From an uncultured virus (IMG/VR IMGVR_UViG_3300013426_000033) (lineage: Duplodnaviria > Heunggongvirae > Uroviricota > Caudoviricetes), in the IMG/VR virus record IMGVR_UViG_3300013426_000033: a DNA stretch of 64,000 bases; one strand, given 5' to 3'. Positions 3,758-11,796 of this stretch are shown piece after piece; position 1 is the stretch's first letter, and the number at the start of each line of letters is the position of its first letter. The translations under genes were made by a program, and so were the position numbers. Below the pieces are notes generated by a model that worked only from the letters and a program-made list of their open reading frames with translations, searched no databases and was not told the origin of the DNA.

Positions 3758-3893
3758 TGGTGGGAATGGAGTGACTCGAACACTCAACTTCCCGATTTGG
3801 TGTTTTAGACAAGTCTTGCACTTGCATTGAAAGTTTTACTTTTAAACTACTAAAACATAAGTCGGGCCCTCTGACCAATTGAGATACATCCCC
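3758..3893 (-). tRNA. tRNA-Ile(UAU) with 59-nt tRNA-like insert (3798-3856)
   Basis: CCCGA-CT TAT[insert]AA-TCGGG; intact D, T and acceptor arms, CCA. Confidence 0.8.
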
Positions 3894-3903
3894 ATATAAA
3901 ATC

Positions 3904-3987
3904 CTAGACACTATATAAAAATCTAAAAAGCATTTATTCCAATTAAATATGTATTAGCATTTTTATTTAATTGCTGTTAGTGTCTAC
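3904..3987 (-). ncRNA. ACAGCAA stem-scaffold RNA copy 2
   Basis: TAGACACTA/TAGTGTCTA stem + ACAGCAA. Confidence 0.7.
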
Positions 3988-4005
3988 TTCTTCAACATTA
4001 CAGGA

Positions 4006-4073
4006 CTAAACCCTTTATTATCTTTAATTTCATAAGGCAAAAATTAAGTAGTTAAATTGCTGTAAGGGTTTAC
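4006..4073 (-). ncRNA. ACAGCAA stem-scaffold RNA copy 3
   Basis: TAAACCCTT/AAGGGTTTA stem + ACAGCAA. Confidence 0.7.
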
Positions 4074-4202
4074 TTTTAAATCATCATTAAATCTTGTTTG
4101 TAGTACTCCAAACAAGTCTCAAAAATCATGCACCGCGAGGGATTCAAACCCTTACTTAAGCCCTCCGTCGAGTGACCCCAACCTTGGTACGGCACTTATA
4201 AA

Positions 4203-4333
4203 CTAGACGCTTAAAACTAAAAGGAGAATTATGAAAGCATCATAAACTAATTAGCAAGGAACAATACCCAAAATCTTTTAAATACACTTTTTATAAAATT
4301 TGATTGTTATTATTGTTTGCTGTAAGCGTCTAC
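4203..4333 (-). ncRNA. ACAGCAA stem-scaffold RNA copy 4
   Basis: TAGACGCTT/AAGCGTCTA stem + ACAGCAA. Confidence 0.7.
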
Positions 4334-4362
4334 ACGTAAACGATAATTTGAATTGTTGCTTA

Positions 4363-4439
4363 TGGCAGCCGATGAACGATTTGAACGTTCGAATGGAGGC
4401 TTCAAAGACCTCTGCCTTAACCAGCTTGGCTAATCGGCT
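4363..4439 (-). tRNA. tRNA-Gln(UUG)
   Basis: GAGGT-CT TTG AA-GCCTC; G73, CCA. Confidence 0.9.
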
Positions 4440-4604
4440 ATATTATTTTTGTACTTTGCCTCTGAATCCCGATTCTCCACAGAGGACATCCATCTCATTT
4501 CTGAGTCCGACTGGACATGGCTTATTTTATTTATCGTGCTGTTACCACCACAAAGTACACAAGAAAGGAAATCTTGTCTGCCCATGAAGGGGAGACATTT
4601 GTTC

Positions 4605-4680
4605 TGGAGCGGCAGACCAGATTCCAACTGGCGACTCCCTAATTCGGTGTCAGGGCTGGATAGCGCTTCCACACTGCCGC
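4605..4680 (-). tRNA. Atypical tRNA, anticodon CCG, Gly-type acceptor (putative tRNA-Gly(CCG))
   Basis: GCGGCAG/CTGCCGC-U-CCA; CCCTGA-CA CCG AA-TTAGGG; unusual D and T loops. Confidence 0.75.
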
Positions 4681-4712
4681 ATTTTTAGGTTGTACCTCTC
4701 AACCACATTTTA

Positions 4713-4741
4713 AGTATAACACATACTCGTCATCTTGTCAA
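4713..4741 (-). promoter_or_regulatory. SigmaA-type promoter driving the CCG tRNA and downstream RNAs
   Basis: TTGACA-N17-TATACT with TG. Confidence 0.75.
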
Positions 4742-4932
4742 GTACTTTTTAAAATTTCTTTTAGAAGATTTTTCTTGTTCAAATTAAGAAGGAGAACAAC
4801 TTTTTGATAAGAAAACAACTCAAGACCAAGAAGTTCACAAAAAGCATCAACATCTTTCATTGTATATTTATCTTTCTTTAAAGCTTTAATCTTTTCAACA
4901 ATTTCCTCTTCCAAAAATAAAAGCTCATCCAT
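4738..4932 (-). CDS. Hypothetical protein
   Basis: 64 aa ORF with GAGG RBS. Confidence 0.55.
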   Translation of the reverse strand: MDELLFLEEEIVEKIKALKKDKYTMKDVDAFCELLGLELFSYQKVVLLLNLNKKNLLKEILKST

Positions 4933-4957
4933 AATAAAAACCCTCTTTTATTTGCTA

Positions 4958-9598: not shown

Positions 9599-9880
9599 TT
9601 ACTCAACAGCCTCATTATAAGTCATCTTCATAATATCAGGCTTAACGGGATAGAACTCACCTTTAATTCCCTTAACGATATAATCACCAACAGAAGCGTA
9701 ATGGTCTCCCTCAAGGGTATTAATGATAAGATTAGTTACAGTACCATTAATAGTATGCTGAGTAGTAACACAACAATGAGCACCAACAAATTCCATAATT
9801 TCGGTTTCATTAGTACCATCCCAAATAACGGCTTCAATAGTAACTGGCTTCTTAGTATACTTTTTAATCATGAATTTCAC
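9599..9880 (-). CDS. Conserved small phage protein (KKPV.IEA / TLEG / GDYI / GEFYP family)
   Basis: Recognisable motif pattern; function not assigned here. Confidence 0.8.
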   Translation of the reverse strand: MKFMIKKYTKKPVTIEAVIWDGTNETEIMEFVGAHCCVTTQHTINGTVTNLIINTLEGDHYASVGDYIVKGIKGEFYPVKPDIMKMTYNEAVE

Positions 9881-9904
9881 CTTCTTGTGTTTTTAAAAAT
9901 TTAA

Positions 9905-9952
9905 CCACAAGATATAGTGGCTAAGATTTTTTTAAACCCCAACATATTGTGG
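9905..9952. promoter_or_regulatory. Tandem NrdR-box-like operator
   Basis: CCACAAGATATAGTGG (9905) and CCCCAACATATTGTGG (9937), 32 bp start-to-start. Confidence 0.65.
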
Positions 9953-10258
9953 TTTAAAGATAAATAAAATGATGATTTTATTTTTACTTTTAATGGGAGC
10001 TTAACGTACTCCAAATGAGTAAAACAACGGATTTCTTGTTTTTGAGTAAAGCATCAAGAAATATCTAACCCTACTGCTTTATTGGCAACGGAGTTATTTA
10101 TACTCTCATCCGTCATTCGAGTTTGTTGTCGGCGCTCAGTCCACCATCTGGGCGAACAACTCCAAGTTCGTCGATGCGAAGACAAACTCCAAGGGTCACA
10201 TCACTTCCGATGTGATAACTACAATAATACCACCACTACTATTGTAGCATATTGCCCC

Positions 10259-10350
10259 CCCCCCATAATTGGATTCGAACCAACTTCCTCTCCCGATGTG
10301 GTGTTTACTCACTATCAGTTAATAAGAATGCTCCATTACACTAATGGGGA
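10259..10350 (-). ncRNA. tRNA-like RNA with elongated anticodon arm (pseudo-tRNA)
   Basis: CCCCAT/ATGGGG acceptor, D arm, T arm GTTGG-TTCGAAT-CCAAT; no canonical anticodon loop or CCA. Confidence 0.5.
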
Positions 10351-10679
10351 TATAAATGTTATAGACCTTTTAACTATAACTCACAGGTTCTCCCTTATAC
10401 AAACAAGGTGACGGGACATTGCTGTGTTTTTAAAAGAAAGCCCTTGTTATACTTTTTCTTTCAAGGATTTAATGGTAAGAACATTTCTTGACCTATAGGT
10501 GTTCTCAAACCTACTCCTTCACCATACATCCAAATGTACTCGCAGGTATACATTGAACATCTCATCCTTAAGGTCAACTGGGGAATCATAAAGCCGTTCG
10601 GTTTATTTTTAATTTGAGTAAACCTTCCTCAAACGCCCCTTCATCCGCTTTTTTAGAAGGATACGGAATCCACGAGTTT

Positions 10680-10770
10680 TGGCGAAGTGGACTGGACTCG
10701 AACCAGTACAGTCTTACAACTTACTACTTGTTTAGCAAACAAGGTCCTTACCAATTAGGATTACCACTCC
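10680..10770 (-). tRNA. tRNA-Ser(GCU)
   Basis: CTTGT-TT GCT AA-ACAAG, long variable arm. Confidence 0.9.
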
Positions 10771-10783
10771 ATAAATGAGCAAT

Positions 10784-10907
10784 CTTGGCACTTTTTTCTA
10801 GCCAACCACGGTTAACCATTCCTTGCTCAAGGGATACGTTAATAAGGAGTCGAACCTTACACGACGTTATTCCAAAAACATAAAATAAATTTGCTGTGAG
10901 TGTCAAC
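10784..10907 (-). ncRNA. ACAGCAA scaffold copy 10 with T-arm cargo
   Basis: TTGACACT/AGTGCCAA; TAAGG-TTCGACT-CCTTA and CGTGGTTG shared with copy 5. Confidence 0.7.
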
Positions 10908-10926
10908 TTTTTAAATTTGTATCTGC

Positions 10927-11004
10927 TGGTGAGAGTAACAGGACTCGAACCTGTAAGCCTCCGCCGTGTAAAGGCGGCATTCTAACCAGTTGAACTATAC
11001 TCCC
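10927..11004 (-). tRNA. tRNA-Val(UAC)
   Basis: CCGCC-TT TAC AC-GGCGG; CCA. Confidence 0.92.
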
Positions 11005-11137
11005 ATATAATATTGGTTTTTCCGCCAAATGCCAAAGGACTTTCGTATTTTACCAACAAACCTCACGTTACTTAATTTATTTATAGACGTTGAGTAATTA
11101 CGTCTCAACAACACATTTTTTAGAAAGGAAAACTATC

Positions 11138-11584
11138 TTAACCCACAGCTTCTTCGGATGGACTATCCTCAGAAGGGATGGTATTGCCAGTGTTATCGAC
11201 AGAGTCATCTGAAGGAACAGGGTTCTCAGTCTGTGCCAAACTCTCCTTTAACTTTTCATCATGAAGCTCACGGTTTACCTCGTATACAGCGGCTTCAATA
11301 GCCTTACGGACTTCATCTGCATCAAGAGTAATACCAAGAGACTCCATCTGCTGATTAAAATACTTTGTTGCTTCCTGCAAACGCTTTTCAATCTCCCGTG
11401 GATACATCTGCTCAACAGCTCGAACAGCAATTAGAGCATACTTCTGAATTAGTTCTGCTGTATTAAGAGCTTCATCAATTTTATCCTGTCCAACCTTCTT
11501 ACGAAGATAAGGAATAAGAAAAATTGTAATAGCCAGAGCACAGAGACCAATTACAGCAACTACAATAGGGGTAATGTCAGTCAT
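11138..11584 (-). CDS. Putative holin (LL-H-like)
   Basis: N-terminal TM helix, AVRAVEQ, IEAAVYE motifs. Confidence 0.65.
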   Translation of the reverse strand: MTDITPIVVAVIGLCALAITIFLIPYLRKKVGQDKIDEALNTAELIQKYALIAVRAVEQMYPREIEKRLQEATKYFNQQMESLGITLDADEVRKAIEAAVYEVNRELHDEKLKESLAQTENPVPSDDSVDNTGNTIPSEDSPSEEAVG

Positions 11585-11662
11585 TTTTGTACTTCCTTTT
11601 TTACATTTTGAATTATAACATCTAACAAACGCTTTATCAAGTGTTTATTAAATAAAATTTAA

Positions 11663-11796
11663 TGGAGCAAGATACGAGATTCGAACTCGCCCTTACGGTT
11701 TTGGTCCTTTAAGTAAGACTTGAACTTACATCAATGGTTTTTCATTAAACTATTAAAGGGGAAGACCGTCGTGCTAACCGCTAACACTAATCCTGC
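11663..11796 (-). tRNA. tRNA-Gly(UCC) with 58-nt tRNA-like insert (11702-11759)
   Basis: ACGGT-CT TCC[insert]AA-ACCGT; U73 CCA. Confidence 0.82.

What the first reader, a model, noticed from the sequence alone, without database searches (positions are those of the whole stretch)
3758..11796. Nested tRNAs: miniature tRNA-like RNAs inserted as introns in anticodon loops
Seen: four tRNA genes (Ile-UAU, Thr-UGU, Lys-UUU, Gly-UCC) are interrupted in the anticodon loop by 50-88 nt inserts. Each insert starts exactly at a 7-bp acceptor stem, has a T arm and ends exactly in NCCA. Precise removal restores a 7-nt loop whose anticodon fits the host body. Inserts differ in sequence but keep the structure, and sit at different positions (34/35, 35/36, 36/37, 36/37). 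All four hosts have U34. Known: bacterial tRNA introns are group I/II and much longer; archaeal ones use BHB motifs; RNase P recognises acceptor+T arm and leaves a 3'-OH on the upstream piece. Inference: a new intron type excised by tRNA end-processing nucleases and sealed by the phage Rnl1/PNK pair, possibly shielding anticodons from anticodon nucleases or timing tRNA supply.
Basis: partly seen in the sequence, partly recalled or inferred. Interest (0 to 1): 0.95.

Follow-up and report, generated by a model that had tools for sequence, protein, structure and literature searches.

The report
tRNA-shaped introns inside phage tRNA genes
Four tRNA genes of this bacterial virus are each split in the anticodon loop by a miniature tRNA-shaped RNA whose two ends match exactly the ends of a mature tRNA, which points to an undescribed kind of intron that is cut out by tRNA-trimming enzymes and sealed by a viral RNA ligase; the splicing itself has not yet been seen.

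Summary
Confirmed. In this TAG=Gln phage, Ile-UAU, Thr-UGU, Lys-UUU and Gly-UCC genes carry 50-88-nt inserts running from base +1 of a 7-bp acceptor stem through a T arm to NCCA. In 14 relatives the inserts come and go precisely (spliced Gly equals intact relatives letter for letter), never beside an intact copy (0 of 44), and their stems covary. Pattern scans found 55 insert families in diverse phages; exact removal restores a canonical tRNA in 73 of 82 candidates. The base before the insert is a pyrimidine in 53 of 55 (42 expected), the RNase P preference; 28 of 30 carrier phages encode an ATP-dependent RNA ligase, 0 of 30 RtcB. Best reading: an intron cut at its 5' end by host RNase P, after CCA by an unidentified nuclease, and sealed by the phage ligase. 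No spliced RNA was observed; purpose is open. Nearest print: Lak-phage 'enigmatic' tRNA introns (Devoto 2019), a different architecture (leader hairpin, no CCA). This scan noted one such nested gene before on another genome (e1-5779119).

The parts
3758..3893 (-). tRNA-Ile(UAU) gene split at 36/37; encodes CCA
   Evidence: same insert family in two different Ile bodies in relatives
3798..3856 (-). 59-nt tRNA-shaped insert: acceptor stem, D-like hairpin, no anticodon arm, T arm, ACCA; U at -1
5899..6059 (-). tRNA-Thr(UGU) gene split at 34/35; no encoded CCA
   Evidence: L006 carries the same insert family in another Thr body whose spliced form equals intact L003 Thr
5938..6025 (-). 88-nt tRNA-shaped insert ending CCCA; related to a 59-nt Thr insert (L011) and a 62-nt Pro-UGG insert (L001, L009, L012)
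8768..8892 (-). tRNA-Lys(UUU) gene split at 35/36
8809..8858 (-). 50-nt near-minimal insert (acceptor stem, 15-nt linker, T arm, CCCA)
11663..11796 (-). tRNA-Gly(UCC) gene split at 36/37; exons identical to the intact Gly gene of L003 and L012
11702..11759 (-). 58-nt tRNA-shaped insert ending ACCA; 69-nt relatives keep a short hairpin with a 4-nt loop in place of the anticodon arm
36270..37628 (-). T4 Rnl1-family ATP-dependent RNA ligase (452 aa; KLDGS, FEY, EGWV, KIK motifs present), candidate sealing enzyme; link to the introns is inferred
   Evidence: PF09511 E 1.1e-12, phrog_562, sequence
37665..38630 (-). Polynucleotide-kinase-like P-loop (AAA_33) plus HD domain, next to the ligase; candidate end-healing enzyme (inferred)
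29854..30681 (-). Nucleotidyltransferase (phrog_388); probably RlaP-like, a label I infer from PMC7824862, not from a family hit

Best explanation
The inserts are introns whose splice sites are the two ends of a mature tRNA. SHOWN (sequence): each insert folds as an anticodon-less tRNA mimic, sits inside the only gene for that anticodon, and exact removal gives a normal tRNA. INFERRED step 1: host RNase P reads the insert's acceptor stem, T loop and 3' CCA and cuts at +1, leaving the 5' exon with a 3'-OH. INFERRED step 2 (weakest): an endonuclease that measures from the tRNA body cuts four bases past the stem, i.e. after CCA; a Thermotoga-type RNase Z activity of the host is the best-known candidate, and the phage kinase would supply a 5'-phosphate if the cut leaves 5'-OH. 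INFERRED step 3: the exons stay paired through acceptor and anticodon stems, look like a tRNA broken by an anticodon nuclease, and are sealed by the phage's ATP-dependent tRNA-repair ligase (Rnl1 here, DRB0094-like in most other carriers). The result is a tRNA that only matures in a cell that expresses the phage ligase. Likely origin (inferred): a mature tRNA ligated into the cut loop of another during repair and copied back to DNA, then shrunk to the part the nucleases need.
For: Precise presence/absence in close relatives, with spliced Gly, Thr and Gln identical to intact orthologues. 0 of 44 nested genes have an intact copy of the same anticodon in the 20-kb locus, and in 5 complete relatives every Rfam tRNA match lies inside that locus. 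Ile-UAU is never intact in the clade (12 of 12 loci that show it). Exact removal gives a canonical tRNA in 73 of 82 distinct candidates from wider scans, against 2-3 of 82 for shifted cuts. Stems covary: 214 of 214 cells paired, 9 of 12 pairs with two-sided changes, slid controls 36-54%; within homologous groups 20 of 20 variable positions stay paired, 11 by double changes. What is kept (7+5-bp stack, T loop, CCA) is what RNase P reads (PMC10731613 passages); the middle varies from almost nothing (43-45-nt inserts) to 135 nt. Pyrimidine at -1 in 53 of 55 families versus 42.0 expected (0 of 20000 shuffles), U in 46 versus 37.9 (p 0.001); U or C at -1 is a positive determinant for RNase P (PMC3874170 abstract). 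Internal control: Lak-type inserts, whose 5' junction is not a +1 site, show this in only 11 of 16 by script, 10 by eye (Fisher p 0.005). ATP-dependent RNA ligase in 28 of 30 carrier contigs versus 10 of 20 controls; RtcB in 0 of 30 versus 3 of 20, matching 3'-OH/5'-P chemistry. Three inserts are still complete Asn-GUU-like tRNAs inside Lys-UUU (L059, L186, L205), and no target-site duplication is seen (46 of 55 junctions unambiguous).
Against: No spliced RNA or excised insert was observed. CCA is an anti-determinant for typical RNase Z (PMC3161902); no RNase Z-like gene passes the cut-off in 50 contigs, and no RNase P RNA (type B model), EndA, CCA-adding enzyme or reverse transcriptase was found in 5 complete relatives, so the 3' nuclease and the route to DNA are unexplained. 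Seven of 44 clade inserts lack a perfect CCA, and the window's Lys and Thr inserts end CCCA, not RCCA. Only 1-5 unpaired bases precede +1 before the host anticodon stem, which may hinder RNase P unless it cuts co-transcriptionally (inference). The ligase census is confounded by kinship and by lower completeness of controls (19 of 20 versus 5 of 9 among contigs at least 90% complete, p 0.02); controls were not scanned genome-wide for inserts and seven over-cut-off PF09414 hits in carriers plus most control hits were not inspected. Pairing counts lean towards the structure because the detector required 6 of 7 and 4 of 5 pairs. The pyrimidine bias could also reflect where nucleases cut the loops originally.
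Confidence: 0.62

Rival explanations
1. The inserts are spliced, but by a dedicated phage endonuclease (or an RNA-catalysed step) that recognises the tRNA shape and makes both cuts; RNase P is not involved.
For: No known Firmicutes nuclease is established to cut after CCA (PMC3161902 passage; otherwise recalled). The Lak-type class has a tRNA-like body at a fixed distance from the 3' junction but a 5' junction 24-31 nt upstream of the body, so at least one related class needs another 5' cut. The element is almost confined to phage-like DNA. Many window proteins have no family.
Against: The 5' junction is exactly +1 with a pyrimidine at -1 in this class and not in the Lak-type class; host RNase P should cut such a substrate anyway; 43-45-nt inserts leave no room for a known ribozyme core; no EndA.
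Confidence: 0.15
2. The RNA is not re-joined: the whole precursor, or the pieces left by RNase P, act as decoys for tRNA-cutting defences or other tRNA-binding proteins.
For: Hosts are enriched for known defence targets: Lys-UUU 16 of 55 families (13 of 509 intact tRNAs nearby), also Thr-UGU and Asn-GUU, the AriB targets (PMC12409363 abstract) and the PrrC target tRNA-Lys (PMC11555353). The phage makes other tRNA mimics (YrlA-like RNA).
Against: A decoy would not need the two loop halves to sum to exactly seven bases with U33 and a purine at 37 across 55 families and five insertion sites, nor to replace the intact gene one for one.
Confidence: 0.12
3. The genes are dead: fossils of mis-repair or selfish inserts spread by neighbouring homing endonucleases, tolerated because the host supplies these tRNAs.
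For: Phage tRNAs are often dispensable (general knowledge). The cluster carries sporadic HNH and GIY-YIG genes, two directly behind the window's Thr and Ile genes, and such enzymes drive homing of tRNA regions in T4 (PMC2330249). Five of 6 loci with the Lys 35/36 insert have an endonuclease-like ORF just upstream, against 0 of 6 with intact Lys (read).
Against: Exons are undegraded and inserts keep pairing through compensatory changes. Only about 8 of 44 nested genes have an endonuclease-like ORF directly downstream and the same ORF families follow intact genes; SegB cuts at the T arm/3' end, not in the loop. Homing may still help inserts spread even if they are spliced.
Confidence: 0.08

Closest known systems
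'Enigmatic' tRNA introns of Lak megaphages (Devoto et al. 2019, PMC6784885; passages and Table S6 read)
   Same: Non-catalytic-size inserts in phage tRNA anticodon loops, present or precisely absent among relatives; the Thr-UGU intron was noted to 'encode a possible tRNA'; TAG-recoded gut phages.
   Different: Lak-type inserts begin with a 24-31-nt leader hairpin, have an 8-bp acceptor (N-1 pairs with N73) and end at a single C without CCA (17 of 17 loci); hosts include non-U34 tRNAs (9 of 16). The window's class starts at +1 and ends at position 76, with 50 of 55 hosts U34. The paper proposes no mechanism in the parts read.
T4 tRNA repair pathway (Pnk + Rnl1 resealing anticodon-nuclease breaks; recalled, and PMC7824862 passages)
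   Same: Same enzymes in the window (Rnl1, P-loop kinase) and the same substrate shape: two tRNA halves held by stems with a break in the loop.
   Different: Here the break would be programmed by the phage's own gene and made by tRNA-maturation nucleases; most carriers use DRB0094-like ligases.
tRNA-like processing signals: tmRNA tRNA-like domain, mascRNA/menRNA, mitochondrial tRNA punctuation (tmRNA from PMC10731613; the others recalled)
   Same: An anticodon-less tRNA mimic directs RNase P and a 3' nuclease to cut a longer RNA.
   Different: In those cases the flanks are not re-joined; here the flanks are two exons of a tRNA.
Archaeal/eukaryal tRNA introns (BHB, EndA/TSEN, RtcB or Trl1; recalled)
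   Same: Short protein-spliced introns in the anticodon loop; archaeal ones also use varied positions.
   Different: No BHB helix, no EndA, no RtcB, none at 37/38 (0 of 55); the signal is the intron's own tRNA shape.
Group I introns in bacterial tRNA anticodon loops (recalled)
   Same: Location in bacterial-type tRNA loops.
   Different: Far too short, end in A not G, no Rfam match.

Membership tests
Group I intron | Catalytic core matching Rfam group I models, length well over 100 nt | tested here: not met
   50-88 nt; no group I match at gathering score in the window or at E<=1 in 1-16000
Group I intron | Terminal G at the 3' splice site | tested here: not met
   All four end in A
Group II intron | GUGYG...AY ends and domain V (recalled) | tested here: not met
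   Starts GUUUU, GGUAG, GUUGG, CCUUU and end CA; no Rfam match
Archaeal-type BHB tRNA intron | 4-bp central helix between two 3-nt bulges at the junctions | tested here: not met
   1-2 of 4 pairs in the four window genes; 0 of 55 families with 4 of 4
Archaeal-type BHB tRNA intron | EndA splicing endonuclease available | tested here: not met
   PF01974 in 0 of 5 complete relatives; host unknown but bacterial-type
Lak-type phage tRNA intron | Insert in the anticodon loop of a phage tRNA, precisely absent in relatives | tested here: met
Lak-type phage tRNA intron | tRNA-like acceptor stem and T arm at the insert's 3' end | tested here: met
   Lak sequences read in Table S6 and relatives
Lak-type phage tRNA intron | Leader hairpin of 24-31 nt before the tRNA-like body (feature defined here, not in the paper) | tested here: not met
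   Window inserts start at +1
Lak-type phage tRNA intron | 8-bp acceptor followed by one C, no CCA (feature defined here) | tested here: not met
   7-bp acceptor plus NCCA in all four
Bacterial RNase P substrate (works like) | 12-bp acceptor/T stack with T loop | tested here: met
   determinants from PMC10731613
Bacterial RNase P substrate (works like) | 3' RCCA | tested here: inconclusive
   ACCA in Ile and Gly inserts, CCCA in Lys and Thr; purine at 73 in 57 of 71 distinct inserts (CCA was part of the scan pattern)
Bacterial RNase P substrate (works like) | U or C at -1 | tested here: met
   4 of 4 in the window, 53 of 55 families
Bacterial RNase P substrate (works like) | Cleavage at +1 in the nested context | not testable with these tools
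   needs an in vitro assay
Intron in the strict sense | Exons re-joined in RNA | tested here: inconclusive
   a 58-nt skip at 11701-11760 in contigs of X9, X10 and X1, but intron-less DNA alleles exist (L003, L007, L012)

The most novel reading that the evidence does not exclude
A widespread, undescribed class of intron in phages, in which a tRNA mimic is its own splicing signal: host tRNA 5'- and 3'-maturation enzymes excise it and the phage repair ligase seals the exons, so that key U34 tRNAs (Lys-UUU, Ile-UAU, Gln-UUG, Glu-UUC) mature only when the phage ligase is present. The class arose by ligation of whole tRNAs into broken anticodon loops followed by copying into DNA, and the Lak introns are a sister class with a different 5' cut.
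Probability: 0.55. Interest if true: 0.95.

Novelty: categorically new. Interest (0 to 1): 0.88.

Why it matters
It would add a splicing route to the known ones (group I, group II, spliceosomal, BHB/TSEN), built from parts every bacterium has plus a phage repair ligase, and would give a testable mechanism for the phage tRNA introns called 'enigmatic' since 2019. It implies an endonucleolytic cut after CCA in gut bacteria that is not accounted for, and an RNA-to-DNA route for tRNA-in-tRNA insertion. Practically, standard annotation misses these genes (ARAGORN finds none of the four), so phage tRNA sets, including the rare AUA-reading Ile-UAU, are under-counted. The substrates are 125-165 nt and the enzymes are easy to make, so the claim can be tested in vitro in weeks. 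The rating 'categorically new' refers to the architecture and proposed mechanism; a tRNA-like intron in one Lak tRNA is already in print.

Tried and rejected
RNA evidence: 11 runs held 5-13% of the region's words; four laid were contigs of related phages; the precise 58-nt Gly skip cannot be told from intron-less alleles, so it is not counted. Cultured carriers: four blastn searches of 50,697 GenBank phages found no record covering 80% of a nested gene. No whole genome is held for the window. Rnl1 as the general ligase: rejected (6 of 30 carriers, 6 of 20 controls). Phage RNase Z, RNase P RNA type B (77), EndA (78), CCA enzyme (79), reverse transcriptase (76), Ro60 (75): not found. Free-standing copies of the inserts in the window and 14 loci: none beyond 16-20-nt matches. 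Strict link to homing endonucleases: not seen. Transposon-like insertion: no target-site duplication. A CCA-less version starting at +1: only one doubtful case (L461) in 103 new matches. Cellular occurrence: 98 pattern matches in 185,579 genomes gave 9 distinct canonical cases plus one identical to a viral case, all on MAG contigs, most in tRNA-dense stretches; probably binned phage DNA, not verified. My first detector output mis-set loop sizes of 9 and 11 by picking outer stem registers; ARAGORN replaced it. Two families are doubtful (L108, G at 33; L283). Literature: searches returned no description of this architecture or mechanism; PMC7162821 has no occurrence of 'intron' in its main text; most subscription papers are not in the library, and the main supplementary PDF of PMC6784885 and all bioRxiv supplements could not be read and may say more.
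Full report
Setting. The window is part of a large tailed phage, 33% GC, that reads TAG as glutamine: long genes open only under table 15, 48 genes end in TAA or TGA and hold 62 in-frame TAG codons, and a CUA-anticodon tRNA lies at 2635-2709. Fourteen relatives of 116-221 kb were fetched through the holin gene. 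A Firmicutes host is inferred from gene content and from one carrier contig filed in a Clostridium MAG (L297); it is not shown.

Observation. All four nested genes are real, at the coordinates listed under parts. Each insert begins at the first base of a 7-bp acceptor stem and ends four bases after it. Removing exactly that stretch gives loops CUUAU|AA (Ile), UUU|GUAA (Thr), CUUU|UAA (Lys) and CUUCC|AA (Gly), which ARAGORN calls as normal tRNAs; a shift of one base or leaving CCA does not. Rfam finds only tRNA here.

Close relatives. A relaxed detector tested 1070 candidates in the window and 14 loci and returned 44 nested genes in seven U34 tRNAs: Gly 36/37, Ile 36/37 and 32/33, Lys 35/36 and 34/35, Gln 35/36, Thr 34/35, Pro 34/35, Glu 36/37. 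The same loci hold 124 intact U34 and 109 intact non-U34 genes. In no locus do a nested and an intact gene of the same anticodon coexist (0 of 44); five of these genomes are complete and have no tRNA match outside the fetched stretch. The window's spliced Gly equals the intact Gly of L003 and L012; spliced Thr of L006 equals intact L003; spliced Gln of L013 and L010 equal intact genes of L002/L004/L012 and L003. One insert family can sit at the same loop position in two unrelated tRNA bodies (Thr, Ile), so inserts move between bodies. Stems covary (18 of the 26 distinct clade inserts were aligned, the long Thr and Gln ones left out). The middle part is free: D-like hairpin, a short hairpin or nothing in place of the anticodon arm.

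Wider survey. With the clade set these make 88 items in 55 families, 43-135 nt, at 32/33, 33/34, 34/35, 35/36 and 36/37, never 37/38. Hosts: Lys-UUU 16, Ile-UAU 10, Gln-UUG 7, Glu-UUC 5, Thr-UGU 4, Asn-GUU 3; U34 in 50 of 55 against 232 of 509 intact tRNAs in the same loci (that baseline is depleted of the hosts themselves). Three inserts are still whole Asn-GUU-like tRNAs, which suggests the ancestral state. The patterns demanded CCA, so they cannot measure how often it is absent.

Junction signature. The site chosen in each loop depends on the base before it: Ile-UAU is hit at 32, 34 and 36 but never after A35; Gln-UUG never after G36; Thr-UGU and Leu-UAA only after U34; Asn-GUU only after U35. 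Overall a pyrimidine precedes the insert in 53 of 55 families (42.0 expected, 0 of 20000 site shuffles). Bacterial RNase P prefers U at -1 and reads the T loop, the 12-bp stack and RCCA (PMC10731613, passages); U or C at -1 is a positive determinant and purines promote miscleavage (PMC3874170, abstract). A scan for CCA-less forms (120 stretches, 103 new matches analysed) uncovered a second architecture in 17 loci: a 24-31-nt leader hairpin, an 8-bp acceptor and a single C before the 3' exon. These are the Lak-type introns of Devoto et al. (PMC6784885; passages, Table S6; preprint passages). Their 5' junction is not a +1 site and shows no strong pyrimidine bias (11 of 16 by script; two rows were mis-parsed, 10 by eye), which argues that the bias in the window's class comes from RNase P, not from loop composition.

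Enzymes. The window encodes an Rnl1 ligase with intact motifs beside a kinase/HD protein, a nucleotidyltransferase and Thg1. Among 30 carrier contigs over 100 kb, 6 have Rnl1 and 26 match PF09414; of 20 such hit regions inspected (19 from carriers), 19 held DRB0094-like RNA ligases and one an ATP-dependent DNA ligase. Discounting two hits in DNA-ligase-sized frames, 28 of 30 carriers and 10 of 20 controls have an ATP-dependent RNA ligase; RtcB is in 0 of 30 and 3 of 20. ATP-dependent ligases join 3'-OH to 5'-phosphate, the ends RNase P and RNase Z leave (established knowledge). The nucleotidyltransferase is in 23 of 30 and 8 of 20. These counts are confounded by kinship. No phage RNase Z was found. 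T. maritima RNase Z cuts after CCA whereas typical enzymes are blocked by it (PMC3161902, passages), so the 3' cut has a precedent but no assigned enzyme. Because imperfect ends (ACAA, ACCG, TTCA) keep the same length, the cut seems to be measured from the stem.

Mechanism and odds. That the genes are spliced to working tRNAs: about 0.8. That RNase P makes the 5' cut, given splicing: about 0.8. That the phage ligase seals: about 0.85. The 3' nuclease being host RNase Z: about 0.4. Why the phage keeps them is open. The host list overlaps known defence targets (AriB: Lys-UUU, Thr-UGU, Asn-GUU, PMC12409363 abstract; PrrC: tRNA-Lys, PMC11555353 passages), which fits an origin in repair of cut loops better than protection, since the product has a normal loop. 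Gating on the ligase, decoy action of the excised mimic and immunity to homing endonucleases (PMC2330249) remain possible. No reverse transcriptase was found in five complete relatives, so a host enzyme would have to copy the RNA.

What is missing. No spliced RNA: the only RNA data were contigs of related phages. No cultured carrier was found.

Comparison and novelty. The element fails the tests for group I, group II and BHB introns and differs from Lak-type introns at both junctions. Searches found no account of this architecture or of a mechanism; the library lacks most subscription papers and I could not read the main supplement of the Lak paper. Verdict: a real, conserved, widespread feature, most likely a new type of intron, with the splicing inferred, not shown.

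Noticed in passing
L382, L387, L390, L392, L397, L399, L404, L422, L431, L437, L452, L458, L466, L467, L468, L473, L480: Second class of tRNA insert (Lak type): 24-31-nt leader hairpin mostly starting ATA, tRNA-like body with 8-bp acceptor, then an invariant C before the 3' exon (17 of 17). By this rule the Lak 'Tyr-GTA' intron host is Asn-GUU split at 35/36, and all four Lak introns, not only Thr, end in a tRNA-like domain.
   Followed up: partly
window minus strand, starts near 10907, 9407, 8729, 8425, 8228, 4332, 4073, 3988: Eight copies of a motif AGTAGAC...ACAGCAA, most closed by a downstream GTCTAG, wrapping different small structured RNAs between tRNA genes; function unknown.
   Followed up: partly
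window 8302-8400 (-): YrlA-like Y RNA mimic (37 bits, below the 69-bit cut-off) inside one of those wrappers; no Ro60/TROVE gene in 5 complete relatives.
   Followed up: partly
window about 7455-7546 (-): Directly after the CCA of Leu-UAG, a T arm followed by a D-like arm and a strand that pairs back to the start: a circularly permuted tRNA-like element; the same follows Asn-GUU in L053.
   Followed up: no
window 2635-2709 (-): CUA-anticodon (amber suppressor) tRNA, called Pyl by ARAGORN, matching TAG=Gln recoding.
   Followed up: partly
L001-L014 tRNA cluster: Whole tRNA bodies for the same anticodon are swapped between close relatives (for example 4 unrelated Ile-UAU bodies, several Lys, Thr, Pro, Glu, Gln bodies) and endonuclease-like ORFs appear sporadically behind tRNA genes.
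   Followed up: partly
L002 17587-17659 (also L004, L007, L008, L014): Free-standing, CCA-less tRNA-like gene with an abnormal anticodon arm one base after intact Thr-UGU; unrelated to the inserts.
   Followed up: no
window 16371-23546, 12420-12893, 1100-1465 (-): Counter-defence and RNA-repair set: Thg1, WGR-PARP, two macro-domain proteins (one DarG-like), class V aminotransferase (cysteine desulfurase-like, inferred), Acb2/Tad1-like protein just under cut-off.
   Followed up: no
window 2878-3675 (-): GIY-YIG endonuclease gene behind Ile-UAU appears split in two frames.
   Followed up: no
L362, L363, L364, L379: A roughly 300-aa protein that looks like a DEDDh exonuclease (by eye) lies directly upstream of the DRB0094-like ligase in four carrier phages.
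   Followed up: no
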